Origin: Antedon mediterranea
Taxonomy: Eukaryota > Animalia > Echinodermata
Length of the DNA: 64,000 bases
Direction of reading: 5' to 3'
NCBI RefSeq assembly: GCF_964355755.1
Contig: NC_092677.1
Span: 17,940,101-18,004,100 of the forward strand
In this document: positions 7,501 to 64,000 of the stretch, piece by piece
How positions within the stretch are numbered: position 1 is the first letter of the stretch
Layout: each line of letters starts with the position of its first letter
Notes under the pieces: model-generated
What the model was told of the DNA's origin: nothing
Database searches by the model: none
The model's input: only the letters and a program-made list of their open reading frames with translations
Position numbers and translations under genes: made by a program

Positions 7501-10500
7501 CCTTTATGTTCCTTTGATTGATTTGAGTAAAAAAAAATAATTTTCTAATTTATTTTGTTTTATGTAAGAAAATGGGTCTATCTATTTAGTGTCATTCGTT
7601 ATCGTTCGTAGCATAAATTCTAATATAATAGCCTAATATATTAAAGTATAATTAACAAAACAACTTTCAATTGATTATGCCTAAATATAGACCTTAGTGG
7701 TATAAAACAAGAATTCTCGAAAACGATTAGGTTATGATTAAATGCAGGTTTCATTCCGCGATTATTTGTTTGTATTTTCTTTATTTGTTTCTCCACACTT
7801 CAACAATGCAACATAGTATTATATAGACATAATGAAGAAAGAAAGTGTTGAATGAAGTCAAGTAATAATGAGCTATAGGACAACACAAACTATGCAACCA
7901 TAAGAAAAAATAGCATAAAACATTGGTACGTAATAGGCCTTCAACAATATTAATTTTAGAAAGGTTGCCTTTATTTATGTAATTTGGTGATTCTGTTTAA
8001 TAATATCTATCTAATTAATGTAAGGATGACTGTATAGTAAATAACAATATATATTATAATCTAGATTTCTAGGTCAATATTTATTTTTTTAAAGAATGAA
8101 AACGATTTTTAGTTTAGTTTGTCAAAATTAATAACATCATAAATATTTACAACTCCCTTAATGTTTCTACCTTCTATTGTTTTCAAAATATTTGTTGACA
8201 AATCAAAGCGAAGTGTTACTAAAATACGTAATAATACTTATGTATCTTTTCACTTAAAGCGCCGCAGTCGTAAATCATTAATTCTGTATTGACATTTACT
8301 TTTTAATTATTCTTTTTCTATAAATTAATTGAAATTATAATTTAGATTGGAATTTATTACCAAATAGTTTGATATTAAATACATAACACAAAATGGAAAT
8401 GAGTTTATTCATAGAAAGCAATTTTAAATGTATAATTTTTCCGAAGAATCTGAGCTCATTTAATATAAACATCCTTCATACGGTAGACAAGTGTACTACA
8501 CTGTCATGCCACATCTAAACTTCCCGCAACATTTTCTTCAAGTATTGTTAATTCAGTGAAGTGGAATTTCCATCGTCGTATTGACGAATCAATTGATATC
8601 GCTGTGCAGAACAATTAACTTGAATATAAGATGCATATGTTGACAAAAACACTTACAAACGACCGTAACACTATTGAGTAACGCTCGGGTCCACTTATAA
8701 TATGAATTCATACAACAACGTTCAATGCGAATTCAAATAGATCTTAGTATGATAATGAAATTATCGCAATATTCAAAAGCTATTTATCACACTAAATTGC
8801 GGATACGATGAGTACAGACGGCGAAATTTAATAAAGAAATATTGACGATCTTACAATGTCTCGTACTGATGTCACAGCTTCTGTATACCATGTTTTAATT
8901 TAATGGAAATCAACTTAGCGACATTGTTTAACAAGGATTGATTTAGATTGTTGTTTAAACCGAACAGTTAGCGTTTATTGAAACGCAACAGACATTATGC
9001 TGAAAACACATTAGGCTTCGTTCGTGGTTCTGTCAAACACAATAGCTAAGAGTTTAACAGAACTAATCTAATATAAAACGTAGTTAATGAAAATATTATC
9101 TTGTTTTCGTTTCTCATGAAATTCGATTCCGCGGTCCTTATTGACAAAATTGTAAATTGGAGACACGAAATCGTACTTGTGTTAGTGTATTTACTTAATG
9201 TAGCCAACGATAAAGAGTGTCGGGCAAATTATTCAACGTTATCGACAATAAGGAAATGACAAATATTATAAAAATATGCGTCTTGACTCGATCTCATCAC
9301 AGAACAATACAACAATAATCGAACATTTACACGATGTATTAAAACCGAAGACACATGAATTCTATGCTTTGTTCATGACAAGTAAAATTCATTTCCCTAG
9401 AGTAAAAGTATAAACATACGACGAGAGAGTTATTGTCAGATGTCTACCAAAGAATAGACTACGAATCTATAGTAAATACACGAATCGCTAAAACGTAATG
9501 AAGATGAATTGATATTTAAAGACTTGACATTTCCTAAGCTTTGAATAAGGGTTAACATATAGTTTGATAAAACTTTGACATAAGCCTAGATCGTAATGTT
9601 TTATCTCATCTAATTTTGTTTTTCTTGTTCTTTAAAAACACATAAGATTACTTTTTAACGACTCTAATTACCGTTTATTCTCAATACTTTATATTATAGT
9701 CATTGAGACTCTCAATACCTATGCAATAAGCAGGAGTTATGTAATAATAAAATGTTACTAAGGTTAATGAGGACTGTTTTAACATTGACGCCAAACGTTG
9801 AATTTATTTTTTTTCGTTTGATTAAGATACATTTATTGAACAATAGAACGCTGTTGGGGAAGAGGTGGTGGTGAGCTCAAAGACCAATACACCAACAATT
9901 TAAGATTGTGCTTGATATCCAAAAACTGATGTCAAAAAACTGTTTTTCTAAAAAAATTAATTAAGAGCAAAATGCATTTTCTTCCACCAAATTAAAATTG
10001 ATGATAATAAATATATATATATCTATCTATTAACTGTTTATCTAATTTATCTAATATATCTATCTATTGTTCTTGAATTCAAGTTTATAAAATATCAATT
10101 TATTCACGATCCCCATTCATGATAAAGTTTATTATTAATCGATACAAAATAAAAGAACTTAAACAAGTTCAAAAGAGCTTGTGATAAAGTTCTAAAGTAA
10201 AAAAACACACAAAAAATGATGCTCGATAGTGGGCCTAAAGAGAAATCTAAAAAATAACTCATTCAAACGTTTCTAGTAGTAGGCCTAAAACAAGGGAATA
10301 TATTTTCATAAAAAGGATGAGCTTAAATTGAACCACATGAAATTTATATTAAATATTGAACGACGTCTCATGTAAGTAGAATACTGCCCTAAAACATTCA
10401 ATACAATGTTATAGACGTGCTCATTAAAAAGTGCTCGCAGTTATAATTTCCTATTTGTACCGAAAGTACTTAAACACTCATACATCCATCTCAGTTTCTG

Positions 10501-13500
10501 ATATAACAATTGCCTAATAGACAACATAATACAATAAGAATTTAAGTTGATGAAATTTAATAAATGAGTTTTTAAACATACAATCTGAGGTTTACGGCTG
10601 CTTATTTTCATTATGGTTTTTTGATCAAACATTGGACAGGTAAATTTAGAGAATCGATATTAAATAAAAGAGGATTTTAGTCATGTTGAATGACCGATTT
10701 TTACAGAGCACAGAGTAATAGCAACTTTTCGTATACTTTTTTCAAGTCATAGTATTGCTGTTTCAGTTCCACGTAATATCTCTACCAATTTGGTAACAAT
10801 ATACACATTTATGTACAATTGATGATTTTAAAAGACTGTAAATAACTTCATTATGATGATGTTTAGCCTAAATAATTTATTTTATATAATAATATATTTT
10901 TTTAATTATAAATGACCTCCGTATATTGTGTATAATTAATTAAAACAATTTACAATATTCTTGTATTTTGGAATTTTCATTTTTTTCTTTTATCTAAATT
11001 GATTTTATACATGAACATTCATTTCGTGATAACAAAAATGATACGAATAAATTTGAAAGATGTTTTCATGGCTATAAACAATAATATCTTTTGTTATGTG
11101 AACTGATCTACATAGGTAAAATACTGGTTTGTATTTATGTAGGCCCAGTAGTAGCAGCATCAAATTAGCATCAATGAAACAGTAGAAATAGGCCTATTAA
11201 CAGTCGGTTACTTGCGGTCTTAATGGAAAGTAATCTTCCTGTTGGTAGAAATGCATATAACTGATTTTTATTTGTTTTAATCCATTGTACTTACTTTATA
11301 TTGCACAGCCTCTAAATTGTCTGTTAACATTCGGAGTCCAGCGTTTTCCCGACCAATCTAAAATGAACATGAACCAATGAAGATGAACAGTATTATTAAC
11401 ACATTGATATGGTAGTTGGTTACTTTAGTATTTTTATATAAGGTTTTATACAATAAATGATTTAATATTAACTTGACTTAAATTGACTTGTTAGGTAATA
11501 TATTATTATTACTAATACTTTGTAAATAAATAATAATAGGCCTATTTTCACATTTGTATTTTAGATATTTTTAGATAATAAAATGACTGTTGTTAAATGC
11601 TGTATAACATTTTATATCAAATAGTATATAGGTTTAATGACCGAATGGTCAATGACTCGATTTGGCACAAAAATATGCATTCCATATAATTTTACAAGGT
11701 TAGCCTAAGACATCATATCCAAGGTAGCCTAGGCGAGCTTAATTAAATGCAACTCGTAGAGGCTGGCGATCGTGTTCAGTTACGCTGAAATCCTGTAACC
11801 GCTGTCTATTTTTCAGACGGCCTACAATTTGACGTGAAACATTCGCAAATTTTACCCTTTGACAGTAATCATACTGGTTGGAATTTAGGCCTAGGCATCG
11901 CTATGGCATTGTAAATACTTACTATTGTTTTGCTTATTAAATTTTAAATGACGGAGATAGGGCTGAAGTATTAGTAAGCATAACAGTGTTCAAGTATATA
12001 CATTTTGGTTGATCTATTTAATCTTAACGCCATGGTCCGAATCGAAAGGAATCACATTGTTAATTTATACTAAGGCGATAAAGATCGACGAGAACTAGAT
12101 AAATGTGCATCCTTTCTACATAAAACAAAGGAAATCGATTTTTTTTTTCATTTAAGAAATATAGGAAAACAATTTATGCTGCCTTTGATGGAAATACAAT
12201 TGTAATCTAATGATTATAAAACGTTATCATCCCAGTAGCTGTAAATATGCCTTTACTCAGTCTTTGTAAAGCACTCAGAGCCCTGTTCCGAACACACGAT
12301 TTAATCAATCAATATTTTAATTTGAAAAGTTGGAAGAAAAAGTTAATGTATCAATGTATGATAGAATGGCGTATTAGAATAATGTAGGATTAGCCGCACA
12401 AACTACACAAAAGTAATGTTAATAAGGGCTTTAGTTTGAGGCTAAAATAAATTGTTTTTCTTCACTGTGTTTAGTTAAAAAAGGAAAAATAAATATTTAC
12501 CAATAAAATAAAAAAAAAAAATACATACATTCAAGTAGACCTACTTCTAATTTTGTTTTCAAAGTATTCCAAATCTTCTGGCCCCACTTTATTTTGTACA
12601 ATTAAAGAAATTTAGCAAACAAAGTTCGCCAGCGGTTTTTAGTCTAATTTGATATCGGTTAGTAGAACTTCTGTAACCTACTGGAAACATTTCCTACACA
12701 GACAGTGCGTACATAATTCAATTTCAAAATATAGGCCTACTATACAATTTCTTATATAATATATCTGTTTTATGTTCTGTAGGCCAATTAGTCACCATGA
12801 TAAAGGACAACTATCTGGACAATTTAAGATTGAATTTAAATATGCTGTTATAGGCCTAGTTGGTTCGTGAAATGTGTGAACCTTATCCCTTCTTATCTAC
12901 GCAACCATTATGGTAGCTAGCAATTTCAGACAATTCTAACACTCAGTAGAGTACATCATGGATGCATGTATGTATATCGCCTATGTATTAACCTACACCT
13001 TCGAAATGAATATGATAGATGTGATATTTTGGGTGTTAGGTGAGGTGCTCGTGAAATACAGTACTCAGGACGCGAGTCACATAGATAAAAGTTTTTTCTT
13101 TATTAGTATAGGCCTAATGTTCAGATTTTAATTACATTACAATGATTCCTGAAATGAAGAAGAATTTCAAACGTGGTTCGCACGATCAGGTTATTCTGTA
13201 TTTTGACGAATTTTACTATAATATTATACGCGTACAGTAAATCAAATCGACTTAAAGGGCACAATTTCGGTCGGTGGTAAGTAAAGTTTCCACTATAGTC
13301 TACCACTGCAAAGCGACTCACAAATAACGTGCGCTCCACCTTAAAAACTGTTTTTATATTTCTTTTATCCGTCGTAGGCTATAGAATACCGGTTGAAATG
13401 CACAATCAATTACTTGCCTGAATAAAAAGAGCAACTATGCAAATACCATCCGGCTTGCCCATTGCTTCTTCTAGACTCGTGTACAAAGTGCTATTCCAAT

Positions 13501-16500
13501 GCACCAGATGAAGCTGTAGACATGAATAGAATCATTTATAAATGACTACGCATTAGTTAGTTACTTATTGCTTTTGAATGAAATCAGAATATTTTACAAT
13601 TTTAGTAAAAGACTAGTTCTGTCTGTAAATAAATAGAAATAGAAATAACATTTTTCATAAATGAAAATAAAATCTATTCAAAAAGTATATAAAAACAAAC
13701 GAATTGCACAGGTTAACTTTACTAGACCTTCCGTATAGTAATTGCTAAAGTGTCTATAATTACATAATATTTGTCAAAGAGTTGAATAGATAAGATACAT
13801 AATAGAACAAAGTGTTCGGAATAATATTGTACTTGTAGAACAATTGGTTGTTTTTTTTTTAAATTTTGGTTCAATGGATATAACTTGTAGACTAATTAAT
13901 GGAGCAGTTCTCATGTTTTTCTTTACGAAACTACGAATTCCTCTCCGTCCGATTACTGCAACCCGGAGAAGATGTATTGTTACTGCGCTACTTAATAACA
14001 AGTATTCGGTCTATTGATTGTGAGAACCGTAACGAGTACAACAACTAACCACTACAACACGGGTTGTTTTTATTATTGAAATCATCCAATGTCCCTACAC
14101 AAACTTATCACTGCCAACATTGTATTATTAGTCTGTAGTAGTACTCTTGTGAATTTTACCACGTTTTATATTTTGTCTTGGTTACGCTATTGTTTGAGAA
14201 AACTCGTTTTACAGGTGTTAACAATTTAAACAGTAGTTATTGTCTTCTTCGCATCTGTGCATACTTTGGAACATCGCAACACAAATGAATGATCAATCAA
14301 TTGTAATTAATTTTTGTGATATGAAAATCTGAAAAAATACATCGTCAACATTGACAACGATTAGGTCCTACTAGTATACGGCCTAATCAAATATTTTATC
14401 TCATTCGATTATTTAGATAGGTATTGTTAGTGAAATATATTAAATTTAACCAAACTTAGTGTTGTCGGTATGAATAAAGCCGGTTGTGATAATTCGGTAT
14501 CGATTTTGCACGGACAAATGATTATCAATCATGTGTTTAATTGTTTATCAAATCATAATACGTTATTAGGCAAGTATGATCCAGATGTCAATTTATGAGG
14601 ATTTTCACAAAACGACTGTCAATATTCTTGACAAGTGTTTAAATATATTTAGTGAAACAATTGTCACTCCGTTCATCATCGTTTACTCTGAGAAAACACA
14701 AAACAGACACGTTTAATTAAAAATCATTGGATTAGGCCTTCACCAATCGTCAATAATGTTGAGCAAACGATTTACGTTATTTTAATATATTCATTACCGA
14801 TAAAACATTTCGATGTACAAAAAAATTAAATGTTTCATATTTTTATTACCGATGAACGTAACGGTTTTAAACAAAATTAGGCCTTAAAAACAATACGAAA
14901 AAGAAAATTAATGGTGGTTTAAATGTGATTCTTAAATACACAAATATCATATTTAATAATGTTATATTTATTCTTAATAAAAACCATTGTTACAAGATTA
15001 ATTATTGTAGGAATATCACGTGTGCTGCATGATAATGATCTATTCTATTGTCTCAAAAAACCATTCCGCGATAATGTTGATAATGCATTTCCACAGAGGG
15101 CGATATAACAGCATTCGTACACCAATTTCAGTTTGTTAATATTAAATTATAATCTAATACATATTACACTATCTGTAGATGGCGCTATTGTCTTATTTTA
15201 AATCATCAGACACAACCACAGACAAGCTTGTTTTCATACCTCCATTGGATAAGCCTTGTAGTTTACTGTATGCTCCGAGCCTCTTTCGTCATCTTTTCCC
15301 CAGTGAAAACAAAATTCAGTCAGCTCAAAATCATACCCTTCTGGTAACGGACCACCAGTCATGACTAGACAAAATAAAGAAAAAATGTTTCTATATAAAA
15401 CAAGATTACCTAAAGTCTTCAATGAAAGGACACATTTGAGGCGCGTAGCCATATCATTATCAGCAATTATTAAATGTGCTTGTTTGTAAAAACTCTGTAC
15501 CACTATCAGGTTTTGAATGCGCTCGTACCAAATGCCGTACCACTATTATCAGCACCTAAACGGGCTTTTGTTTTCATTGTTGACATAGAATGTGATTTAT
15601 GTTTTCTTCGAATCATACCTGAGCGAGGAAATGTTTCTTCTTTGCCATCACGTGATGTTGATATTGTTGGATCTTTAAAAAAACAATAAAAGCACATTGA
15701 TACCCGTAAAATGATAAAATTAATAAGTAGGCCCTCTTAACAGGCCCTACCGCTCATGTTTGGCGTAGGAGGATTTGAAATAATTTGTTGAATTTATTGA
15801 TGAGATCGAAATCGAATTTCAGTCCCAGTTTGAGAGAATGCATCTTGCATATAATGTCAGGTAACGTCTTTAAAATGTAGGCGCCTTCTATGTATATTTG
15901 TTTTGAGTCTTTACATTTACATACTAAAATACATTTTTATAACTGTACAACGTATAGTCGATGACTTATTAAAATACAACTTTATTAGACCAACAACTTG
16001 TCTCCTCCTCAACATCAGGTCTGTCTTAACCCACGCGGTCTCTCTTTCCCAAAGCGCCCTCTATTATAGGAGACATTCTATTTTCTATGTTTTGGGTTAC
16101 ATTATTTTTTTATGTCATTTTATTTACCGATGGTTTTACTTACCTAATTTGTATCTTAGTGAAATTTGTACTGTATGGCCTGTGTTTGTTATGTCACACT
16201 CTCTGCATAGCATATAATTTGCATCTAATTGATTGTGATTTAAAGATTCGTAGTAGGGAGTGTCACGTGAGTTGATGTTGATCGGCGATTGGCAGTCTCC
16301 ATTTGCTTCTGGGAAATGTAAACCCCATTCAGATGTACCTAATATTAATAAATGTAATAACGGAGTAATTATAGCGATTGATTCTACTTAAAAAATACTT
16401 CGGAGTTTATTAAAGCAGTAGCAGGAATATGTTTGTCTAATTATTAATTGTTTATTTCAGGTTGTTAGTATTCCTTTACCAGCGCCACCAACGGGAGTTG

Positions 16501-18098
16501 GTTGAAAGCCATGTGTGCAAAAATGTTATTTTACAACAAATACGATGTCGAATTGCTGTCTTAACCTAGACTATAGCGGAAACGTAATCCTACCACTTCT
16601 AAAGAGCAAGAGATTGAACGATTTAGCTGATATTTCCTAAAACTGAATCCAACCCTTTAAACAATCTCTCTAAAAACACTCAATAGTTGTACAAGTCGAA
16701 TTCTATACCATTCAGCCAAAGAACTGACTTGCAGAACACAAAATGATGGATTGTTTTACGATAGAAGGATTGGCGATGGAATTAAGTTTATAGTGCTAGG
16801 TGGGATATAGTAATAGGTAATACTAATAGGTCTAGTAAAAGAAGGGGTTGTGATGGTAATTATGGCTATGGGTGGTTGATGGGCGCACAGTGATGATAGG
16901 AGTAATCGAGTGGTGTGATTGTGATAGTAATGCTAACTATGATGTGTTACTGGAAGTAATAGTAATGGTGATGGTAATTAGGGTGATGCGCCCGAGGTGA
17001 TGTTTAAAACAAATCTCAATTGGTTCGGTTCACAATTTATGATTGTACTGATCTTACAATGCATCGTAAATTTTTTAATTACACAATAAAATATTCCATA
17101 TTACTAATCAGTTTATATACATGTTGACCAGAATTGTGGTGATAACGATGGCAACATTTAGATATTTTTAAAGATATTGACTGGAATAGATTACTTTGGT
17201 TATTAATATACCCGCCATGCGCGGTTGACGAATAACTAATTATGGTGTGTAAAACATCACGGTTGTCATAGAAACGCTTCATTATAAATTCATTATATAT
17301 TCAAGTACACCGTAAAATTCAACGAAGCAGACATAAACAACGATCTGTAATTAAGGAATACTGCCTAATTGTCTTTTATTCGTTATCTTTATGAAATAAT
17401 TATTGTTATTTTAAGGAGGGAAAATAAAGGATATTATTTAAAGATATCAGATAATATCAAGCATTGCCATGCCTAATCTTATATAAATTCATGGTATTTA
17501 GCTAATGAAGACAACGTATAAAACATAATAATATAACTATACTACGGCATGGGGTTCATGTGTTTTTTAGTGAACTTTGGTGGTTGTAGATGAAGGTGGA
17601 TGGGTGAATTTTGACGATGGTTGACTGGTGTACACTATAATTGGCTGCCCCCCCTCCCACCTCTAGATTGGTAGACAAACGAAAAACTACAAAATAGTAT
17701 TGTAAAGCAATTAAAAACTGAACGGATGACAAAAAATACAAACGAAGAGAAACCATGGCATTACGAGTATAAATAAAATAAATTAATTTTCAACAGTTGG
17801 GCCTGGAATAATAGGATAGAAACTCCATATGGAATAAACCCCCATATTAATTAAATATATTTCTAAATCCCATATTGCAGACTTAACTCAACAACATTTA
17901 AAGTGAAATCATTCTTATCAGCGTTAGGCTATAATGCGATATTGAACAGCCGGTTCGTGTCACACGTATCGCAGAGAAAAAATCACTTTTGAACTAGACA
18001 GACGTAAGCTTTCTAAAGCTAAATTGTAAGCACATATACATACCGTCATTATGATAAAACCATTCGAGTTCTGTCTCTTCACTCAGTTCTGTCGCCAT
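4293..18098 (-). CDS. CA8: Carbonic anhydrase-related protein VIII (CA8/CARP VIII)-like gene; core exons 18044-18098, 16144-16338, 15240-15364, 13418-13513, 11295-11357, 7340-7391, 5537-5649, 4293-4427 (834 nt, 277 aa)
   Basis: Manual splicing gives a continuous ORF: [43 protein letters not shown]...[14 protein letters not shown]...[50 protein letters not shown]...IGRENAGL...[27 protein letters not shown]...[11 protein letters not shown]...[10 protein letters not shown]...[19 protein letters not shown]. This is collinear with vertebrate CA8 as I recall it, and all junction phases are compatible. Confidence 0.95.
5537..5649 (-). CDS. CA8: CA8-like exon 7
   Basis: attaag|AT...CAG|GTAAGC; [38 protein letters not shown]. 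Confidence 0.96.
5757..5932. repeat. Tandem duplication of about 90 bp (2 copies) in CA8 intron 6
   Basis: taactgtctc..ttttattaggaagaagtcttca..acacaac..acaaaataaaa.ctgcattcaca occurs twice. Confidence 0.85.
7340..7391 (-). CDS. CA8: CA8-like exon 6
   Basis: ttacag|GGA...CCAG|GTAAGG; [17 protein letters not shown]. Confidence 0.92.
11295..11357 (-). CDS. CA8: CA8-like exon 5
   Basis: ttttag|ATT...AAA|GTAAGT; [21 protein letters not shown]. Confidence 0.93.
13418..13513 (-). CDS. CA8: CA8-like exon 4 (followed by a GC-AG intron)
   Basis: ctacag|CTT...CAG|GCAAGT; [32 protein letters not shown]. Confidence 0.94.
15240..15364 (-). CDS. CA8: CA8-like exon 3 (zinc-ligand region)
   Basis: gtctag|TC...GAG|GTATGA; [42 protein letters not shown]. 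Confidence 0.96.
15619..15672 (-). CDS. CA8: Probable additional or cassette CA8 exon (54 nt, phase 1-1, [18 protein letters not shown])
   Basis: Strong acceptor ttttattgtttttttaaag|AT and donor TCAG|GTATGA; length is a multiple of 3, phases match intron 2, no stop codons. Confidence 0.6.
16144..16338 (-). CDS. CA8: CA8-like exon 2
   Basis: tattag|GT...TTAG|GTAAGT; encodes [22 protein letters not shown]...[14 protein letters not shown]. Confidence 0.95.
18044..18098 (-). CDS. CA8: CA8-like exon 1 ([19 protein letters not shown])
   Basis: ATG at 18098, donor G|GTATGT, phase 1; EWFY resembles the CA N-terminal W-x-Y motif. Confidence 0.85.
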
Positions 18099-18163
18099 AT
18101 TTAGAATAAACACAATTTACGTTCGAGATGGGCTTCGCGCAATTAGTTATGCACTGCCGCCGG

Positions 18164-18173
18164 TTATATAAAT
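18164..18173 (-). promoter_or_regulatory. Candidate TATA box of the CA8-like gene
   Basis: TTTATATAA on the minus strand about 70 nt upstream of the ATG, next to a short GC-rich patch. Confidence 0.4.
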
Positions 18174-18838
18174 AATAAGGCAGCGACAGTTCGTATAGGC
18201 TATAGTATTACTTACAGCAATAACAAATGTTCCGTGGATACAAGTAAGATATTAATAAATCGCTGTTCTTTAATAGTACGGCTATTTGTAATGTTGTCTA
18301 TAAAATCAGTGAACAAATGATGAGACTCTAATGAATTGCCTTTAGAATATCATGTCAAATTGTAATGTTAAATAGGCAGATGTAATTAAAATGTCTTTAT
18401 CTGATTGTAAGCAACTAAAAGGTTTTGTCTTTTTAACAAAAGGATTTAATATCGGAGATGAACTACAAAAGATACGGCTCAGTGGCCAACTGTCAATGAC
18501 TCATCTGCGCATGTACATGAGCAACATACATTGATTGCATCCTCTAATTAAAGACTAATTAGAAAAAAAACTACTTACGCGATAATAAAAAGTTAAAGGA
18601 TAACTCCAGATCGAAAAGAAATATGTTGTTTATTATAAAAAACAAATCGTTGCAACCATATAACCCACTTATCTTACCGAAAGTGATGAAGCAGAATGAA
18701 CATCGTGAAAAGTCCCCTTTTCAAGTGATGCTACTTGACTACATGACATGCTACATGTGTTCAAAAAAATTAACCGGTTAAAAATAATATTTAAAACTCA
18801 GCAACATTACGAGAAAGTCCTGGAGAACTTTTAAATTA

Positions 18839-19405
18839 AACAAGGCCATATAGATGGCTGCAGTCGCGTGCTCATTAGTGTTTACCGACCGACCGACCAA
18901 CCTACCAACTGACCGAAATTACTGAACATGTTTAAAAATGTTGAAATGTTTAAAAACATTTATATTTTTAAAATTTACACGTGCGTAGCCTGTAACTTTT
19001 GACGTGCTCGTATAACGTAATTTCGAGTTGAAAAGTAAGTCAAGAAAACAGAAATCGGGCAAAAAGAGTGCGCACTCATGGCAATTTTGTAAATGCTTAA
19101 AATTACCTGAAAATAAATAAATTTTGAAAATTTTAAGCGCGCGTACGCATGCGTTACATGCGCTACGCACGTAACTGTGATTTCGTTAAATCGTGCGTAG
19201 ACCGCGTAATTTTTTATTGCGCACCGTGAAAACATAACCACATCGATTCCTGGCCATAAGGAATATACTGTGAAAAATTGACTTAGCTAGATTAAACTGA
19301 TATCAAGATAAGGTCAGAAAGCGATAAAACGCATAGTGATACCGGACCGACAGACAGACCGACAGACCGACCGACCGACCGACATAGTGAACTATAGAGT
19401 AAAAA
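18839..19405 (-). mobile_element. Helentron-type non-autonomous element, long copy
   Basis: Same termini as the other copies, two (ACCG/ACAG)n tracts and about 400 bp of internal sequence. Confidence 0.72.
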
Positions 19406-48739: not shown

Positions 48740-48840
48740 AGTTGAAATGTTGTCCTTAGAAAAAATCCTGACATGTGACGGGGCTTGAACCCAGAACCAT
48801 TGGAGTGGTAGCCGAGCATCATAGCCACCAAGCCACAACT
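48740..48840 (-). mobile_element. tRNA-derived SINE head
   Basis: Minus-strand A box TGGCTTGGTGG and B box GGTTCAAGCC at tRNA spacing; no proper acceptor stem. Confidence 0.55.
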
Positions 48841-52600: not shown

Positions 52601-52747
52601 ATCAATTGGGCTCGTTGCTAAGCTCCCATCTTTAGTAATTAAACTTTTTATGTGTTTCTTTTTACTTTTGGATCTTTCTAACCCAAGAAAGTATTTTGTA
52701 TTCCGCTCGCCTTCCTCTATCCATTTTACTCTGGACCTAATTTGCGC
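49694..52747 (-). mobile_element. 5'-truncated L1/Tx1-clade non-LTR retrotransposon, recent insertion
   Basis: Uninterrupted ORF2 frame from about 52747 to 50072; 3' UTR with AATAAA (49734-49739) and poly(A) (T run 49692-49709); direct repeat GACACAAAATTGTT at 49680-49693 and 52748-52761 is the TSD. Confidence 0.95.
50072..52747 (-). CDS. L1/Tx1 ORF2 (reverse transcriptase plus C-terminal zinc knuckle; endonuclease lost by 5' truncation)
   Basis: RSRVKWIEEGERNTKYF, KTPGSDG, NWRPITLLNTDYKILA, DFKKAFDS, RQGCPLS, QLADDT, CDKC...HLFFSC. The frame stays open about 106 codons upstream of the Met listed at 52429. Confidence 0.93.
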   Translation of the reverse strand, partial: AQIRSRVKWIEEGERNTKYFLGLERSKSKKKHIKSLITKDGSLATSPIDILKEQIQHFEGLYAKNVINPGKINKYLCNSIINKLSEIEKENCEGYVTIDECKKAISMMEKNKTPGSDGLSVEFYVFFWNNIKHLICDALNESYNSQELSFSQKRGVITLLFKDGERENLNNWRPITLLNTDYKILAHVLSNRLKMVIKSIVSSDQKGYIKGRFAGENIRLIEDLLYYTECNDIEGAIITVDFKKAFDSISRDFMFNVLEKFNFGMFFCNWVKVLYNNVECVTVNNGWVSNNFKMERGIRQGCPLSALLFILVVEVMASRIRNKDDYKGIKLPNNENNIEARISQLADDTVLYVGNDKSIKSAVSVIERFCEVSGMTLNKKKTNAFWIGKWKNRIDRPLELNWVKHPIKILGIYVGYNTEECTRKNWDVKLIELEKTLKQWNARNLSIFGRIIILKSLALSKLTYAANITDVPKYVYTQVTNLIYNFIWNNKREKIKRKTLIGDVEMGGIKMPDFTLHVNALMCGWLKRIMNDDGAKWKNIPMYYIKKICDVNGLLNMSCYNIIDVNSDKIPLFYKNMIKAYINYNRISKKNPETYNDIMNEQLWGNHYVKLKKKTLFYKHWIDSGIISIKDIVNKNTFLTSNEILVKLQCKTNWLNEYLCIIKAIPIQWKRIIKEVDIFNCDDNDEVVGTKYEINTTKLIYSWFVKEYFIIPMSQLKWEEYFNDNNIDWKTSWLRKVCKMKDKKLAQFNYKMLHRILPTNKRLYQWKVKETQTCDKCGEIENENHLFFSCRFIQKYWRKMLSIFVSLNHNNISFKQLILGTGDKLIDYIYTFAAFTIYRIKMLSALNKPVGKSLWNSFKSNMLYNIECETYNNKETSIEKWVALRNKIMII

Positions 52748-53160
52748 GACACAAAATTGTTATCGAATCAAAAAAATCCCAGATATCTCCCAATTTAACT
52801 TTATTGTTGATATCAAACGCTTTGGATTTATCAATCACACTTCTGTTCTGTTAGACAAGTTTACAGCACAAATGGTGTTCAACAAACTGAACTGGAAGCT
52901 TCATTTAGCTTAAATTTCCAATAATATCTCCCAAACCATTGATGTACTAAATAAACTGAAATCTACATCATCACTTCCTTGTACACTACACTCATCTTGC
53001 CTCGCCTCTTCTATTGTAACACTGTCTTTTAGAGGAATAAATTCCTTGAAACTAGCCTTACTGTTATAAATTTGATAATAATAATATTTAATATATAAAC
53101 TTTTATTTTTTAAATTAAATAATGAATCTAAAATATATAGTATAAAATATATAAATAGCA

Positions 53161-53283
53161 ACAAAATGTTTTTCTCTCTTTTGTGAACTTTTATTCACAT
53201 TGATATCATCATAGTCATATCATCACTATATCATCTTCATTTTATTTCCATTATTATCACATTTTTGTTTCTATCATTACGAT
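53161..53283 (-). mobile_element. Second L1/Tx1-like 3' end remnant
   Basis: acaaaatgttttt..ctcttttgtg..acttttattcacatt closely parallels the 3' terminus at 49683-49750. Confidence 0.5.
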
Positions 53284-53443
53284 TTTATCAACTTCATCAG
53301 TGTAGTCCTATAACATTTATCAACTTCATCAGTGTAGTCCTATAACATTTATCAACTTCATCAGTGTAGTCCTATAACATTTATCAACTTCATCAGTGTA
53401 GTCCTATAACATTTATCAACTTCATCAGTGTAGTCCTATAACA
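53284..53443. repeat. Perfect 32-bp minisatellite, 5 copies
   Basis: (TTTATCAACTTCATCAGTGTAGTCCTATAACA)5. Confidence 0.95.
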
Positions 53444-53462
53444 TTTTAAATTTTTAAATTAT

Positions 53463-53850
53463 AACCCTGGGAAATACTTCCGAAAGAGGAACTTGTCACA
53501 AAATGAGAGTCAATTTAAAAAAAAAACCCAGTTTGTGTTTTGTATGTAACATTAGGGTTGAGAAAGAGGATGGGTGCAAAGAGGAACAACAAAATACATT
53601 TTTTAGCCATTTAGAAACGAAAAAATAATTGTTTTAATGTTTTACAAATAATATACCATTATAAACAGTAAACATTGCGATTTTAAATACTTTGCTGAAA
53701 CTGTCACTTTCATAGTCGATTGAAATAGTACAGTACATGTAACAATACAACTATGACGTTTTCTTTTTTTGTAATTACAGTATTAATTAATAGAAACGCT
53801 GAGAAGCAACTGTCAGTAATACATTTTATTTGTATATGTTTATATATAAT
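53463..53850 (+). repeat. Dispersed repeat of about 380 bp; second copy at about 60183-60520
   Basis: Shared blocks accctg.gaa.tacttccgaa.gag.aacttgtcacaaaatgag, gtatgtaacattagg, gaggatgggt.caaagaggaacaa. Confidence 0.8.
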
Positions 53851-55239
53851 GTAAAACAGTTTGTGAAAAACACCTCTATTCGGGGCAATATCGTAAATTC
53901 GCTGTAATCGTCAATAAATAATTATCTAACTCAACTTAATTAGTAGACCTAATGGTTTTCAATGGGTTCTTAGAGCCAATTCATACTTAAGTTGGTTCCT
54001 ACCCACCAAAGTTGTTCTGCGTTAGGGCATGTGATCTTTCGTACTGTTGGCATATCCTAATTTTTGTTTATCTTAGATCCAGTTCATACGGTACGTAATT
54101 TACACGGGTTACGTTGGTTCCTACCCACCAAATTTTGCGGTAACTGTGCTCATGAAAGCAACTAACTATGCCTAAACAGGCCCTTAGAGAGTTATGTGAT
54201 ACCGCGGTTTTGATAAAAGCAATGTAGTAAAACAGTTTGTGAAAATCAAACATCAATTTTAATCGTCAATAAATACTTATCTAACTCAACTTAATTAGTA
54301 GGCCCAATGGTTTTCAATTGCTTGTACAATTTGATACGGAAAGTATGAACCCACTTTCTAAAGCATTGAGAAAAAGGTTACGCGCGATTTACCTAAATGT
54401 CCTTAATACGAATACTGTACGAATAAAACTAAATACGTCCTATAAAAACCTACGTCCTTAGTAAATGTATATTATACGCGCTTGTAATTGCTCAGATGGC
54501 TTCCGAATATAGGAGCTTTGGCGTTAATAACTGGAAATTATAAAAATGAATACAGTCAAACACGATGCAATTTGTAGCCAAATATAATTGCAACCATGGA
54601 AATTTTAAATTGAAAAATATACTTTAGACTTAAATTGTCTGTATTGCATGGTATCAAATTATAAAATTCGTATCAAACATGGATTGTTTTCTTACAACAA
54701 CGCTTGCAATATTATATAATTATAATATATATTTGTTGTACACTACTGTAAATCTACTGGTATTAGCATTTTCAGTGTTACATATAATTATATATTTTAA
54801 CTGTCTGATCAATTGAAATAAGAAGTAGCGGGCTTTACAACGCTACTCATGGCATTAAGAGGAAGAGTGGTGGTGTGGGTGGTGGTTGAACTGCAATAAT
54901 AAAGTTGATTGTACAGCCACCTCTACAGTCACAGATTGACAAAATGAGATCGAATGTCTGTTATGAGTGTACTTGCCTTTGTGTTATTATTTGGAACGTT
55001 CCATCAAAATAGTATTTTCTTTAAAATCGGTCTTCAACGTTATAATGCTGTACTCGAGCTTCAACCGGTTTTCAACTATTAAAAGCAATTATTGTAGGAG
55101 GAGATTCGAAGCATCCTCGTATTATCATTAGACAGTGTATACCACGATCGGAAAACAACCCTATTTAGGGCAAATCGTTGAACCTAACTTCGTTTTAATT
55201 GTCAGTAACTAATTATCTAACTTAATTAGTAAACAGGGT

Positions 55240-55365
55240 TAAACCAGATGGTTAAAATCAGTACCGAATGTATATGAACCAACTTTATATACCATCGAGT
55301 AAACATTCTAGAAGTAATGCGCGATTTACCGAATTTTGCCCTTACGTAAATTTATATATAGATTA
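55240..55365 (+). repeat. Dispersed repeat; inverted copy at about 63868-64000
   Basis: cagatggttaaaatc..taccga...accatcgagtaaacattctagaa...cgcgatttaccgaattttgcccttac matches the reverse complement of the window end. Confidence 0.85.
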
Positions 55366-55483
55366 TAGACAATCCAAAATTTAACTTTTTTAAACATCGA
55401 ACATAAAATCTTTACTAATAGAATCAAATTAATTAATTATTGTCCTTTCAATGTCATTAAATTCTGTATAATAAAAAAATTGT

Positions 55484-55680
55484 CTACTAAACGAATGTTT
55501 TCGCCGGCGAAACGTTTTTTGGTCTGAACTTACTGTTGATTTATTTAATAACTACTTTTAGTCTATTGCTTAACACATGTTCAAGAATGTTGTAGTCAGT
55601 GTTTAGAAGGGTTTGAAAAAAGGATAGGCCTAGTTCTTGAGAATTAAAACGTTCATTTAAAGCATCGAAGAAATTAAATA
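55484..55680 (-). mobile_element. Older degenerate fragment of the same L1/Tx1 family (RT region)
   Basis: Aligns to 52085-52350 (gaatgttttc.cc.gcgaaacg, tttggtctgaacttact, ttcttgagaatt) with deletions. Confidence 0.8.
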
Positions 55681-57654
55681 ATTGTCTTGGCGATCCAATT
55701 TTTGGTCAAATTGAATAAATATTATGAGAAATTAAAATGGCGTTTAAAAAAACATTTGTATAAAAGACAACGAACACAATATAAATGTCTCTTTCAGTAG
55801 ACTTTAGTCGTTAGGTTGTAGTTCAGCCTGAAAATAAAAAAATGCAAAAAATGTAAATATTTATATCTCAAAAATGAAAACCTGAAGAAAACACCGTAAT
55901 AAACGTAAAATTAAAGTAATATAACCTATACATTTATTAGTCATCTGGTTTTTTTTTCTTCATATTTTGATAGATTCCTTCCTATTTTTTTTATAAAATT
56001 TGTGTACACAAGAATAGGTATTAATTTACACAATCGCCCACTCATTATTTATCAAAATAATCGTTTATTATTGGAATGTTATATGACCAATATATTGTAT
56101 TTGCCTGCCTTTAAAACTGTTACAAACATCGTAATAAACATATCGCACATATTGCGGTTAGATTTTTTTTTGGCGATGGAAATGTTAATAGTAACGACGA
56201 TCTCATCAATATAGATTATTAAAAAAAAAACACTCATTTAAAAAATACATGCTTCATTTATCCTTAATTTAAAGTTAATCTTTCAGTCTTATCTCGGTAC
56301 ATCTATATATATCCTGTCTATAACACTGGCTCTACATATTATTATCACGGCTAAAGGTTTTACTGTCAGCGATTGGTTAAAAGAGCACCACAATATTCTT
56401 TAACTTTGGGTGCGTTAAGAGAAAATTGTAAAAATAGTTTTTAAGTTGAACGTGGTACTAATGGTACCTAACTCTGCACTCAGGGCAAAACAAAAACACT
56501 GCCGTTCATAGTATATATGTCCTCCTTTGGACATTGGAAGACTAGGCCCATAGTTTTTACCACTTTACTCTCAAAGCAAAACAATATTTATATATTATCT
56601 AGGACAGCTCTCAAGGATTCTGACGTATATATATACCTGCGATCTATTTCCAAATTACAAAACAACAGCTTTTTTTAACCGATAAGATTATTTAATTCAC
56701 GAATCCCTACTAAAATAAAAGGGATCTTATGTCCTTTAATATACTTAAATATTGAAACTACTTAATTAAGCAAAACTTAAATTAAGACGTACGTTGTCAC
56801 TATTTTTCCAAAAGTAATTAACGTTCTATATAAAGCAAAACTTCTATTTTTAGAAAGACTTGTTAATTTTAGATATGCATCTGAAAGTCATCGACTAAAA
56901 ATAAGTGATCCATAAAGAATATCAATTTAAGTTGATGATATAATAGTCTGTAGGCATCGTGACAATGACGTCAATCATTAATACTAGAACATAACAAAGA
57001 AAGATGTGGATATAAGACAAACACAATGTGATCTACTGTGTGAATCTTATTCACTAACGTCAGAATTTAATAATATTACATAATGCCTTCAATAATAGCG
57101 TGTTGTAATAATTAAATAGTATTTAACTATGTATAACTGTGGAATGGTAAACGAAAACAAATTAAACTCGAAACTTTGTCTTCCAAAATAACCAACCTTA
57201 ACAACATAGTAGAGAACTGCTTATGATGCGTCCTAATATGAATTGCCTATTATTATTTATTCATTTTATATTGACAAACTGAAATTAACATGGCGCAAAA
57301 TAGTACAGTAGGCCTACAACAAGTAGGCCGATATAAAAAACCTTGATAATATTTTCACTAACTTCAACTTTGACAAAACTGAAGGTTCAATTAATAATAG
57401 TAAAAAATAAAGCATAATAATATTTAGATATCCTAGCCAAATTTGGTTACCTTAATACGAATAAAACTTTAATATGTACGCTCTTGCAATTGCCAATATG
57501 CTCTCGAATACAGGAACTATGGTGAAAATAACTAGAAAGTGTCAATATGTACACAGAGCGAATGAATACTAACATGATGTAATTATGTAGCCAAATACAA
57601 TTGTCACCATGATAATTTTAAAATGAAAAATAAACTTTGACTTGAATTTTGCTT

Positions 57655-58710
57655 ATTGCAAAGTGCGGCAGGCAGTTATTACAAAGTGCGGCAGGCAGTT
57701 ATTACAAAGTGCGGCAGGCAGTTATTATAAAGTGCGGCAGACAGTTATTACAAAGTGTGGCAGGCAGTTATTACAAAGTGCGGCAGGCAGTTATTACAAA
57801 GTGCGGCAGGCAGTTATTATAAAGTGCGGCAGACAGTTATTACAAAGTGTGGCAGGCAGATATGCGACAGGCAGTTATACTATGGAGTACGGCAGCAGTT
57901 ATAACAGTGCGACAGGCAACTATTACAAGTGCGAGAGCAGTTATTAGGCCTACAAATTGTGACCGCAGTTATTCCAATGTGAAACAGGTAGTTATTACGA
58001 CAGCAGTTATATTACAATGTACGACAGTAATTATATTACAAAGTATGGCAGCAGTTATATTACAAAGTATGACAGCAGTTATAATTAAAAGGTACGACAG
58101 CAGTTATATTACAAAGTATGACAGCAGTTATATTACAAAGTATGACAGCAGTTATAATTAAAAGGTACGACAGCAGTTATATTACAAAGTATGACAGCAG
58201 TTATATTACAAAGTATAACAGCAATTATATTACAAAGTACGACAGCAGTTATATTAAAAAGTACGACAGCAGTTATATTAAAAGGTACGACAGCAGTTAT
58301 ATTACAAAGTATGACAGCAGTTATATTAAAAGGTACGACAGCAGTTATATTACAAAGTATGACAGCAGTTATATTACAAAGTACGACAGCAGTTATATTA
58401 CAAAGTACGACAGCAGTTATATTAAAGGGTACGACAGTAGTTATATTACAAAGTATGACAGCAGTTATATTACAAAGTACGACAGCAGTTATATTTCAAA
58501 GTATGACAGCAGTTATATTACAAAGTTATAATTACAATGTACGACATCAGTTAGGCCTATATTACTACATATTGTAGCAGTTATATTACAAAGTTCGACA
58601 TGAGTATATATTACAAGGTACGACAGCAGTTATATTACAAAGTACGACAGCAGTTGTGTTACAAGGTACGACAGCAGTTATATTACAAAGTACTGTATGA
58701 CAACAGTTAT
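57655..58710. repeat. Compound minisatellite: 23-bp unit grading into a related 24-bp unit
   Basis: ACAAAGTGCGGCAGGCAGTTATT (about 57655-57860), then TACAAAGTACGACAGCAGTTATAT (about 58020-58700). Confidence 0.95.
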
Positions 58711-60532
58711 ATCTATATATAAATTATGGTTAATTCTGACATAGGCGAACACAATGGAAAAATTTTGGGAGAAATCTCTGCCTTGGATACCTACCTGATC
58801 TAACTTAGGTATATCGTGAAATGTAAATTTGATAACATTAGTTTTCACTATTACGGTATTGTTCCATATTTCTATCTTAGGAAGATATTATAAAGGGTTT
58901 TATAATAAAATTGTAGGTATATTTTCAATTGAATTTAAACTGTACGCGGGTCGAAGTAATTTCCGGGTTCACGATAAGTTCACATGTTCACCTTGCAACT
59001 TCCTGGTTTCAACTAAGTTGGCCGTTAGTGGCTATAGCCAATTTAGTTTTTGGTTTATTTTCGGATCGAACCGCGCGTGTGAAGGTACGGTAGTTAAAAA
59101 ATAAAATTATACTGCAAATTAATAAAGAGCAAATTAAATATACGCCATAAAGCATCGGAATATATTGTGGGGAATAGTATTATAAAATTACAGGGAGATC
59201 TGATGATAAGACATTTTGTTTAAAATCGAGTGAAATCCCGATAGCCGAGTTTTATTGAGTAAGCTGGCAGGAATAACTGTTCCGTAAGGACCGGGTGTCT
59301 GCCCATGATGCAAGCCGTCTAAAACGTTTTAGAATAATCACTCCCAAACACCCCCCACCCCCCGCAACAAAAACTATCTAATAAACGCCCATCCATATTT
59401 ATACACACAATGTTGTATTATATTTATAATGATACTATTTGTAGTAGAATTCATCGCACTGTTATCTAAAATTTACCAAGCATTTGTTATTCTTTTTTAC
59501 CACTTTTCATATATCTATTAGAGGATTTTATTTGATTATAAATGTTACCATATTGTTAAAACTAACAAATTAAACATATCCCTTGAATAAGCATCTCCCT
59601 CAAATGAACTCCGCCTCCTCACATCAGCCCTTTAAGGTTCCTACCAAACAATACACACTAGGCCTACTTTAAAATGTTATTAATCATCTAAGACACTGTG
59701 AAACAGAGTAGGTTTAGTTTTACGAATGTCAAGCATTTTCAATAATGGTAACCGACAGAAAACGTACATGGATAACGTTTACCCGAGTCATTATCATTCC
59801 GATAACCATCGTCTACACTTCCTAGAGCTGTATCTTTACATTTGCTTCTCTCCACCCAGGTGTAAAAAATGGATACCAGTTAGATAATCGAGAGCTTATT
59901 TATATTATTTAATAATGAACTATTATTATTATTATATTAGTTATGAATTTCAAACAATTGAACTCTGAAATTAAAACACTGCTCTCTACTTACTGACAAG
60001 AGGGCGATATACAAACAAGTACAAATAGAATATCATCTAGGTCGCGCCCACACATAGTTCTCGAATACACAGTAATTTCAGCGTAAACAAATTTCAAATG
60101 TACGTACCGCAGGAATATAATACATTGTCGTTCAAATACGAATAAATAGACACGATGATTTATGTAGTCAAATAACATTAGCACCCTGAGAATTACTTCC
60201 GAAGGAGAAACTTGTCACAAAATGAGTCCATATTTTTGATTTGGACTCATTTAAACAAACCAACGTTGTGTTTAGTATGTAACATTAGGAATAAGGAATA
60301 GGGAAGAGGATGGGTACAAAGAGGAACAATTTTTAAATACATTTTTTATCCACTCAGTAACGAAATATTTTGTTCATTTTTTATAGGCCTATAAATAATA
60401 TACCACTAAATACAGTAAAACATTTGCGACTTAATACTTGGACGTTTGTATTTTGTGTAATTATTAATACAAACGTTGAGAACAACTGCCAGTAATAGTG
60501 TTTACTTGTACATTATGTGTTTATTTATCTAA

Positions 60533-61070
60533 CTCTCTCTCTCTTCTCTCTCTTTCTTGGAATGATCCAAGAAAACATTTATTATAGCCTATATGGCATT
60601 TAACCCAAATAATGTAACAATTATATAAATAACATTAGAGTGCGTTTAAGAATTCTGTTCTACTTTTAAATGAAAAAAATAAATATTTTCCAAGCTTAGT
60701 AGTGAGATCAGTATTAATAGTGGACATAAGATAAATATATTTTAATTTAGATGGGTTATTTGTATAAAATGAAAAAATATATTTAGTTCTAATATCTGAA
60801 TAAAAGGGACAAACTGATGTGAAGTGACATTCAGCTTCAATCGATTGTAAAGAACATAATTTGCATAATCTTTCATTTCTATTAATATGATTCCATCTTC
60901 TTTTTTTTTCAATTTCTAGTTCTAATATTCCTAGTCTTAGTTTAGTCATAATTTTTCTATGTTTGTAATTTGTTATTTTAATTAAGTATTCTTCAATAAT
61001 TCCAAAATAATATTTAATGCGTGTTTAATATTGGAGCTTAGAGTGTAATTTAATATCTTTAAATAATTGT
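60533..61070 (-). mobile_element. RTE-X-like LINE 3' fragment
   Basis: KLRLG...LEIE..R....RNERLCKLC...IE.E.HF..VCPFY..IR C-terminal motif; AATAAA and (GA)n tail. Confidence 0.75.
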
Positions 61071-61720: not shown

Positions 61721-61764
61721 AAGGAGCCAGACGAACAACAACAACTAGGCCTACTGCCTTATCA

Positions 61765-63384: not shown

Positions 63385-63453
63385 AACAAGGCCATACATA
63401 TACATGGCTGCAGTCGCGTGCTCAATTTAGTATTTACCGACCAACCGACTAAA
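63385..63453 (-). mobile_element. Helentron-type element, internally deleted copy
   Basis: aacaaggccata...atggctgcagtcgcgtgctc...ttaccgaccaaccgactaaaa. Confidence 0.68.
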
Positions 63454-64000
63454 ACGACATCCTGTAAAAAGCCACCCAACAATGGACTATACCATTTCAA
63501 AAAGGGGGTGTCATATAATGAACTTGTATTTAATTGTGCGTTATTAATAGGAATGTAGCATGGGTAATCATTGTTTGGTGTTTGGAATTACAACATTTTA
63601 TTTTATAAATGTAAATTTGGAATTCTTAGGACTTACACAAGAATAATAATCAATATTTTAAATAAAACATTTATTTGTTTACTATTACTCTACATTTGGT
63701 TAAATATCACATACTCATATATACACTGAATAAGTATTGGACTTTATAACCATTTTGTCAAATTAAAAACATTACATTATTAAATTTAATAAATAAATGA
63801 AATACACTGAAGTATATCAGTTTACCAGAAATAAAGATTGTTTTATATTTGATTTCATAAAGTTTATTGAATCTAGGCCTATAGGCCTATATAAATTTAT
63901 GTAAGGGCAAAATTCGGTAAATCGCGCGTTATTTCTAGAATGTTTACTCGATGGTATATAAAGTTGGTTCGTACTTTCGGTACAGATTTTAACCATCTGA

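What the first reader, a model, noticed from the sequence alone, without database searches (positions are those of the whole stretch)
10280..63889. TAGGCCTA is a recurrent 6-bp insertion at TA sites: probable mass DNA-transposon excision footprints
Seen: the exact palindrome TAGGCCTA occurs at least 23 times (e.g. 10280, 11189, 11537, 11886, 12732, 12851, 13109, 25855, 27885, 36255, 39908, 43064, 43179, 43848, 55625, 57309, 57945, 58552, 59659, 60384, 61746, 63874, 63882). A rough base-composition estimate predicts fewer than one. Paralog comparisons in the window show GGCCTA inserted after a TA. (a) The L1 copy at 55621 has aggaTA[ggccTA]gttcttgag versus intact ggaTAattcttgag at 52301. (b) The minisatellite at 57941 has ttatTA[ggccTA]caaa versus the unit ttatTAcaaa. 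(c) 58551 has tTA[ggccTA]tattac versus the unit tTAtattac. (d) 63871 has atcTA[ggccTA]TA[ggccTA]tataaattt versus the inverted copy near 55350, atcTATAtataaattt. (e) 60384 versus 53641 fits less cleanly. Inference: these are scars of a TA-targeting cut-and-paste element with GGC...GCC ends, since TAGGC plus GCCTA joined through their GC overlap gives TAGGCCTA and one-sided scars give the frequent TAGGCTA/TAGCCTA. That would be a mutational process rewriting the genome roughly every 3 kb, with the donor element not identified in this window. I cannot say whether this has been described for this taxon.
Basis: partly seen in the sequence, partly recalled or inferred. Interest (0 to 1): 0.85.

Follow-up and report, generated by a model that had tools for sequence, protein, structure and literature searches.

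The report
Transposon exit scars at TA sites
In this feather star's DNA the word TAGGCCTA occurs dozens of times more often than chance, is a six-letter insertion at a TA site wherever a related copy allows the comparison, and differs between the animal's two chromosome copies at one site; it is likely the scar left when a cut-and-paste jumping gene leaves, but that jumping gene was not found.

Summary
Observation confirmed. TAGGCCTA occurs 23 times at the stated places, against a shuffle mean of 0.38 and 0.6-2.6 under Markov orders 2-4. Three sites are clean 6-bp insertions against in-window paralogs, three more fit less cleanly. New here: site 13109 is heterozygous; contigs of the same individual lack exactly 6 bases (1 of 3 sites covered). 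TAGGCTA/TAGCCTA are enriched (20 vs 5.5-9.4); TAGGTA/TACCTA and TAGCTA are not. The known Sleeping Beauty-type scar TACAGTA/TACTGTA is also enriched (35 vs 15-18) and is a 5-bp insertion in the same minisatellite. Best reading (0.75): germline end-joining scars of a TA-targeting element with GG(C) ends. The donor was not found: no TIR pair and no transposase in the window, and no genome is held. GGC versus GG ends is unresolved. The host is a crinoid (a 100% identical protein is labelled Antedon mediterranea). This scan noted the same scar before on other DNA. Footprints are a known kind; this one was not found in print in 10 searches.

The parts
10280..10287 (.). TAGGCCTA, cluster 1, inferred intron of a carbonic anhydrase-like gene
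11189..11196 (.). TAGGCCTA, cluster 1
11537..11544 (.). TAGGCCTA, cluster 1
11886..11893 (.). TAGGCCTA, cluster 1
12732..12739 (.). TAGGCCTA, cluster 1; no indel listed in the laid contigs
12851..12858 (.). TAGGCCTA, cluster 1; no indel listed in the laid contigs
13109..13116 (.). TAGGCCTA, heterozygous: contigs of runs X4 and X5 lack 6 bases here, X3 and X6 carry them
   Evidence: tables 4 and 8
25855..25862 (.). TAGGCCTA downstream of the GEM-like gene
27885..27892 (.). TAGGCCTA about 240 bp past the GEM-like stop codon (possibly 3' UTR)
36255..36262 (.). TAGGCCTA between the first two coding exons of the GEM-like gene
39908..39915 (.). TAGGCCTA between the first two coding exons of the GEM-like gene, 40 bp from a broken RT frame
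43064..43071 (.). TAGGCCTA 0.7 kb upstream of the GEM-like start codon
43179..43186 (.). TAGGCCTA upstream of the GEM-like start codon
43848..43855 (.). TAGGCCTA upstream of the GEM-like start codon
55625..55632 (.). TAGGCCTA, clean 6-bp insertion in a decayed L1-like copy relative to the open frame at 52304
57309..57316 (.). TAGGCCTA sharing its first TA with a TACAGTA at 57304 (possible nested scars)
57945..57952 (.). TAGGCCTA, clean 6-bp insertion in one minisatellite unit (1 unit with, 8 without)
58552..58559 (.). TAGGCCTA, clean 6-bp insertion in one minisatellite unit (1 with; 35 CAGTTAT words without)
59659..59666 (.). TAGGCCTA
60384..60391 (.). TAGGCCTA, probable insertion vs paralog near 53640 (not clean)
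61746..61753 (.). TAGGCCTA
63874..63889 (.). two adjacent TAGGCCTA in a TA run; probable double insertion vs the inverted paralog near 55350 (not clean)
128..60591 (.). 20 seven-letter forms: TAGGCTA at 7202, 13375, 17925, 18196, 29922, 40093, 41624, 43285, 44551; TAGCCTA at 128, 389, 7629, 10864, 11701, 11725, 30553, 36161, 38747, 48341, 60585. About 11-14 exceed chance; none shown to be an insertion
58691..58697 (.). TACTGTA, a 5-bp insertion in the same minisatellite (1 unit with, 22 without): the Sleeping Beauty-type scar, an internal control
57653..58693 (+). minisatellite (23- and 24-bp units) whose units give the empty state
50072..52759 (-). 895-codon L1-like open frame (RVT_1, zf-RVT) that gives the empty state for 55625; 0 TAGGCCTA at 280 TA sites

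Best explanation
TAGGCCTA is a 6-bp insertion (TA to TA-GGCC-TA) at the sites with a clean paralog, and is likely the scar left in the germline when a TA-targeting cut-and-paste transposon with GG(C) ends excises and the break is closed by end joining. Shown: enrichment; insertion polarity at three sites; a 6-bp allelic difference at 13109; enrichment of the 7-letter forms. Inferred: an element inserts at TA and duplicates it; its transposase, as in the IS630-Tc1-mariner group, cuts a few bases inside each end and leaves 3' overhangs on both flanks. With GGC overhangs, pairing of the two terminal GC dinucleotides would give TAGGCCTA and pairing over all three bases with a central mismatch would give TAGGCTA/TAGCCTA, as CAG overhangs give TACAGTA/TACTGTA in Sleeping Beauty. 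I put GGC at about 55% and GG with fill-in at about 45%. Decayed copies suggest that scars have accumulated over a long time, and the heterozygous site suggests that some are still segregating.
For: 23 vs 0.38 and 0.6-2.6. Invariant G+C-rich insert in unrelated A+T-rich flanks. Clean polarised gaps at 55625, 57945, 58552. Site 13109: 6 left out in X4 and X5, present in X3 and X6. TAGGCTA/TAGCCTA 20 vs 5.5-9.4 (p 5e-6 at order 3); TAGGTA/TACCTA 28 vs 31-35 and TAGCTA 12 vs 10-13. Known scar class TACAGTA/TACTGTA 35 vs 15-18, with a 5-bp insertion at 58691; it is the canonical Sleeping Beauty footprint (PMC6943129, passages). One-mismatch forms enriched, e.g. TAGACCTA/TAGGTCTA 9 vs 1.5 and TAGGCCCA/TGGGCCTA 6 vs 0.9. 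The base next to the scar favours pyrimidine 3' / purine 5' (32 of 46 flanks vs 23.6, p=0.009). pogo/Fot-like elements with GG-starting TIRs exist, one seen with a TA duplication (Entamoeba; PMC7386202 supplement 3).
Against: No donor: no convincing TA|GG...CC|TA TIR pair in the window, no transposase domain in 129 frames of 62+ aa over the window or 59 shorter minus-strand frames of 1-15300. No filled allele seen at any scar (3 exact sites covered). Polarity at 13109 is unknown: a deletion between the two TAs would look the same. 17 of 23 sites have no empty-state comparison, and no 7-letter form was shown to be an insertion (0 of 20). The GG-ended pogo rows I saw were fungal, algal, oomycete or amoebozoan, mostly with TAA/TAAA duplications, and no word starting GGCC was found in 8 supplement files. 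In rice, clean excision scars are rare (8 of 94 left only the duplicated target; PMC4423477, passages). Absence from coding frames is not significant (0 vs 1.6, p=0.18).
Confidence: 0.75

Rival explanations
1. A transposase-independent mutational process (for example a repair polymerase or template switch at TA) adds GGCC plus a TA duplication without any element having been resident.
For: No donor found; no filled allele seen; the product is a perfect palindrome.
Against: The insert is invariant in unrelated flanks, which local templating does not give; a second TA-flanked class that matches a known transposon footprint is present in the same array.
Confidence: 0.09
2. The words are parts of ordinary repeats and spread by copying of those repeats, not by independent events.
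For: Some decayed copies were multiplied by duplication: TAGTCCTA in five units of the 32-bp array at 53284, and TAGACCTA/TAGGCCCA in the paralogs at 53944 and 54299. Sites are clustered.
Against: The 23 exact sites share no flanking sequence; within repeat families only single copies carry the word.
Confidence: 0.06
3. The donor duplicates three bases (TAA/TTA, as in many Fot elements; Zator also has 3-bp duplications) and the scar loses one base.
For: Two exact TWA-GGCC-TWA words occur, 14877 and 32819, vs 0.14-0.30 expected; GG-ended Fot elements mostly have TAA duplications (PMC7386202).
Against: It needs T before or A after every scar (at least 23 of 46 flanks); only 8 of 46 have it, fewer than the 16 expected by chance.
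Confidence: 0.05
4. TAGGCCTA is a selected protein-binding palindrome.
For: Palindromic; three copies lie 0.7-1.5 kb upstream of the GEM-like start codon.
Against: It sits as an insertion in a decayed L1 and in single minisatellite units, is absent from one haplotype at 13109, and shows no link to CpG richness (rho -0.21, p=0.26).
Confidence: 0.04
5. Assembly or library artefact.
For: All four full-cover runs are one sample, perhaps the one assembled.
Against: Contigs assembled separately from X3 and X6 match the window with 0 differences over 12560-14825, across three sites; decayed forms exist.
Confidence: 0.01

Closest known systems
Sleeping Beauty canonical footprints TACAGTA/TACTGTA (PMC6943129, passages; bioRxiv 10.1101/659086, abstract)
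   Same: TA + terminal bases of the element + TA, left by end joining of 3' overhangs; the 7-letter pair TAGGCTA/TAGCCTA is the exact analogue for GGC ends. The CAG-type word is itself enriched here.
   Different: Ends would be GG(C), not CAG; the commonest product is +6, not +5; these are inherited natural scars at about 0.35 per kb in this window, not assay products; donor unknown.
Tc1 excision scar of C. elegans (PMC13148408, abstract and passages)
   Same: TA target and a stereotyped short insertion after end joining.
   Different: The typical Tc1 scar is +4 and somatic, the germline repairing by homologous recombination; here the +4 forms are not enriched and the scars are inherited.
pogo superfamily, Fot/Fot-like and Passer (PMC7386202, passages and supplement 3 rows; PMC9976928, passages)
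   Same: Includes GG-starting TIRs, TA duplications in some members, and 0-4 bp footprints (Passer).
   Different: No animal GG-ended row among those I saw; most GG-ended rows have TAA/TAAA duplications; membership cannot be tested without the donor.
Genome-scale excision polymorphisms in rice (PMC4423477, passages)
   Same: Natural excision events read from genome comparison.
   Different: There most excisions carry deletions or filler DNA; here one stereotyped scar dominates.

Membership tests
Excision footprint of an IS630-Tc1-mariner/pogo element | Scar is an insertion relative to an empty TA, with TA on both sides | tested here: met
   Clean at 55625, 57945, 58552; 6-bp allelic difference at 13109; 17 of 23 sites untestable
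Excision footprint of an IS630-Tc1-mariner/pogo element | Inner bases equal the first/last 2-4 bases of a resident TIR element | tested here: inconclusive
   No such element in the 64 kb; whole genome not held
Excision footprint of an IS630-Tc1-mariner/pogo element | A family of related scars differing by end processing | tested here: met
   TAGGCTA/TAGCCTA 20 vs 5.5-9.4; by count only, none polarised
Excision footprint of an IS630-Tc1-mariner/pogo element | Cognate DDE/D transposase in the genome | not testable with these tools
   None in the window; no genome
Excision footprint of an IS630-Tc1-mariner/pogo element | Filled allele (element between the two TAs) at a scar site, or the scar produced in an excision assay | tested here: inconclusive
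   None at 3 exact sites in one individual; assay not possible
Footprint of a donor with 3-bp TAA/TTA duplication (Fot, Zator) | T before or A after the TA-GGCC-TA core | tested here: not met
   8 of 46 flanks, at least 23 needed
Sailor (DD82E) | TATA duplication; TIRs starting GT or CC (PMC8533490, passages) | tested here: not met
   TATA on both sides of GGCC at 2 of 23 sites; inner bases are GG

The most novel reading that the evidence does not exclude
An undescribed lineage of TA-targeting transposons with GGC ends is spread across invertebrate phyla, hops so often in the germline, and is repaired so cleanly by GC-microhomology joining, that its scar is among the commonest small insertions in these genomes while resident copies stay rare: a dated, base-precise record of past transposition that outlives the element.
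Probability: 0.3. Interest if true: 0.72.

Novelty: new variant of a known kind. Interest (0 to 1): 0.5.

Why it matters
If true, a common palindromic 'motif' of this genome is mutational debris and will mislead motif discovery and k-mer models. It would also make two open questions testable from sequence alone: how often cut-and-paste elements excise in natural germlines, and how often the break is closed by end joining and not copied back from the sister or homologue (C. elegans germline uses the latter; PMC13148408, abstract). Scar words predict the ends of the donor, and two scar classes in one array would let two families be compared. The word carries a TAG on both strands, so it can disrupt coding frames; depletion from coding DNA was not significant in this window.

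Tried and rejected
Whole-genome counts and donor search: no genome held. TIR scans in the window for TA|GG...CC|TA and for any TA-flanked pair gave nothing convincing. A repeat that starts TA|GGCC at 21461 and ends GGCC|CA at 21661 looked like a small donor; its ends match 8 of 13, a level reached by 44 of 166 GGCC pairs, so rejected; its 20-base start found two unrelated metagenome loci. The element on the other haplotype at 18194-18196 touches a TAGGCTA but has TAG...CTA ends and a 3-bp duplication, so it is not the donor. First read-laying over 5000-24900 was swamped by repeats (12 of 84 indel rows shown); gap sums of one X4 contig imply 6 letters lost and 3 gained in 10040-12559, but the places were not shown, so this is not counted. 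The ACGT insertion at 18031 is not at a TA. No link to CpG ratio, nor between scar classes, in 32 bins of 2 kb. TAGTCCTA excess is mostly one tandem array (5 of 8). Literature: searches (283 papers hold the string; the 30 listed are unrelated by title; 1 paper, a primer) found no description of TAGGCCTA as a genomic scar; most subscription journals and Repbase Reports are outside the library, and bioRxiv supplements are closed.
Full report
Observation. TAGGCCTA occurs exactly 23 times, at the coordinates given; 100 dinucleotide-preserving shuffles give a mean of 0.38 and at most 3. Markov expectations are 0.72 and 2.0 at orders 2 and 3, or 0.59, 1.07 and 2.61 at orders 2-4 when the 23 inserts are removed from the background; orders 5-6 rise to 16-23 only because they are fitted on the word itself. 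Among TA-N4-TA words it leads (z 26). Of 99 GGCC words 23 have TA on both sides. The flanks are unrelated to each other. Sites are clustered: 7 in 10001-14000, 7 in 25001-45000, 9 in 55001-64000, none elsewhere; 12 of 22 gaps are under 1 kb against 6.7 for random TA sites (p=0.004).

Context. The window is animal DNA of about 32% G+C. A coding exon at 28130-28435 is 100% identical to a protein labelled GTP-binding protein GEM-like of Antedon mediterranea and 88% to one of Anneissia japonica, so the host is a crinoid. Its coding exons map at 42356-42141, 34452-34363, about 29800-29550 and 28435-28130. Five carbonic anhydrase exons lie between 16387 and 4296 on the minus strand (one exon was not located). 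None of the 23 sites is in these exons or in the RT frames, but only 1.6 were expected there (p=0.18). No genome is held, so every count is for 64 kb.

Is it an insertion? I searched all 23 sites, 20 seven-letter forms, 35 TACAGTA/TACTGTA and 37 one-mismatch forms for paralogs in the window. Six of 23 exact sites have an informative paralog. Three are clean 6-bp gaps: 55625 in a decayed L1-like copy against the 895-codon open frame at 52304, and 57945 and 58552 against minisatellite units (1 unit with the insert against 8 without; 1 against 35 CAGTTAT words). Here polarity is clear because many units, or an intact frame, show the empty state. 63874+63882 and 60384 score better without the inserts but lie next to other gaps. 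None of the 20 seven-letter forms has an informative paralog. One of the 35 CAG-type words does: TACTGTA at 58691 is a 5-bp insertion in the same minisatellite (1 unit against 22).

Second haplotype. Six public runs hold the region; four are one sample, possibly the one assembled. Laid on 12560-18800, their contigs list 26 substitutions and 11 indels. One indel is '13109 left out 6' in X4 and X5, while X3 and X6 match the window with no difference over 12560-14825. So 1 of the 3 exact sites covered is a segregating 6-bp indel, and the word is not an assembly artefact. Contigs are mosaics of two haplotypes, so no row at 12732 and 12851 does not prove homozygosity, and the direction at 13109 is not known. 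No filled allele was seen at a scar.

Spectrum. TAGGCTA/TAGCCTA: 20 vs 5.5-9.4. TAGGTA/TACCTA: 28 vs 31-35. TAGCTA: 12 vs 10-13. TAGGCGCCTA, TAGGGCCTA, TAGGCCCTA and TAGGGCCCTA: 0 each. TACAGTA/TACTGTA: 35 vs 15-18. One-mismatch forms are in excess, mostly transitions, as expected of ageing scars; some were later duplicated (53944/54299; the 32-bp array at 53284). The base beside the word favours pyrimidine on the 3' side (32 of 46, p=0.009) and avoids A (8 of 46 vs 16, p=0.008). The latter rules against a TAA/TTA-duplicating donor for these 23.

Mechanism. Tc1/mariner transposases cut the non-transferred strand a few bases inside the element, leaving 3' overhangs; end joining leaves 2-4 terminal bases between two TAs, for Sleeping Beauty TACAGTA or TACTGTA (PMC6943129, passages; further forms in bioRxiv 10.1101/659086, abstract). 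By inference, GGC overhangs can pair over the terminal GC (giving +6, TAGGCCTA) or over three bases with one mismatch (+5, TAGGCTA/TAGCCTA), which is the observed pair of classes; CAG overhangs cannot pair over two bases, which fits the lack of an 8-letter CAG class. GG overhangs with fill-in and occasional loss of one base give the same words, but a Tc1-like +4 scar (typical in C. elegans soma; PMC13148408, passage) would be expected and is not enriched. I therefore lean to GGC (55:45). Earlier AI notes of this scan report G-rich-ended pogo-like donors in another genome (e1-8147538, e1-9325482); I could not test that, and it keeps the GG reading open.

Donor. Not found. TIR scans of the window were negative; the one lead at 21461-21661 is at chance level; Pfam found no transposase in 129 frames of 62+ aa or in 59 shorter minus-strand frames of 1-15300. 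In the pogo survey PMC7386202 (passages; supplement 3, places 1-10 and 61-99 of 99 for GGG and all 5 for GGC) GG-starting TIRs occur in Fot/Fot-like elements of fungi, red algae, oomycetes and Entamoeba, the last with a TA duplication; no word starting GGCC was found in its 8 supplement files. Passer leaves 0-4 bp footprints (PMC9976928, passages). Sailor has TATA duplications and GT or CC ends (PMC8533490, passages) and does not fit. PMC10045372 and PMC4455052 (passages) gave only duplication lengths and classification.

Against my reading. No donor, no filled allele, 17 of 23 sites without an empty-state comparison, one individual only, and clean scars are the minority in rice (PMC4423477, passages).

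Novelty. Footprints are a known kind. Ten searches found no paper that treats TAGGCCTA as a natural scar; the one paper holding it with 'transposon' and 'footprint' has it in a primer (PMC7650587, passages). The library lacks most subscription journals. This scan has noted the same scar in at least two other genomes (8 of 9 notes shown), none in this genome; these are unchecked notes and not support. What this window adds is a crinoid host, a heterozygous site, and a known scar class in the same array as a control. Verdict: real, an insertion, likely a transposon exit scar; new variant of a known kind; interest 0.5.

Noticed in passing
window 18194-18196: The other haplotype carries an inserted element here: 3-bp duplication TAT, perfect 15-bp inverted ends TAGTGGGGTGCCTTA, seen as loose ends in X3, X4, X6 and as junction contigs in X5. 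TAG...CTA ends with a 3-bp duplication suggest Academ (label recalled; the paper was not held). It abuts a TAGGCTA.
   Followed up: partly
window 14877-14886 and 32819-32828: TTA-GGCC-TTA and TAA-GGCC-TAA, 2 vs 0.14-0.30 expected: possibly a minor scar class of a GG-ended donor with 3-bp duplication, or decayed TAGGCCTA.
   Followed up: partly
window-wide; 57304, 7157, 40899, 58691: TACAGTA/TACTGTA 35 vs 15-18; three share a TA with an exact or decayed TAGGCCTA, suggesting repeated hits at one TA.
   Followed up: partly
window-wide: TACCGTA/TACGGTA 12 vs 6.3-6.5 (p=0.03): a possible third scar class.
   Followed up: no
window 50072-52759 (-): 895-codon open L1-like frame with RVT_1 and zf-RVT; decayed copies near 55369-55740 and 3334.
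   Followed up: partly
window 55245-55358 and 63888-63999: Inverted 114-bp copies at 93% identity, 8.5 kb apart, with further direct duplications at 53458/60177, 53905/54260 and 54475/57477.
   Followed up: no
window 2947, 18839, 19350, 25013, 63389: Very high-copy short repeat with GACC runs; contig depth thousands-fold above single copy at 18837-19400.
   Followed up: no
window 1655-1762 and 28968-29105: Short palindromic elements; the second has a telomere-like GGTTAG core.
   Followed up: no
window 4296-16387 (-) and 28127-42356 (-): Carbonic anhydrase-like gene and GEM-like (RGK) GTPase gene.
   Followed up: partly
window 53284-53446: Five identical 32-bp units, each with TAGTCCTA, possibly a decayed scar amplified by tandem duplication.
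   Followed up: no
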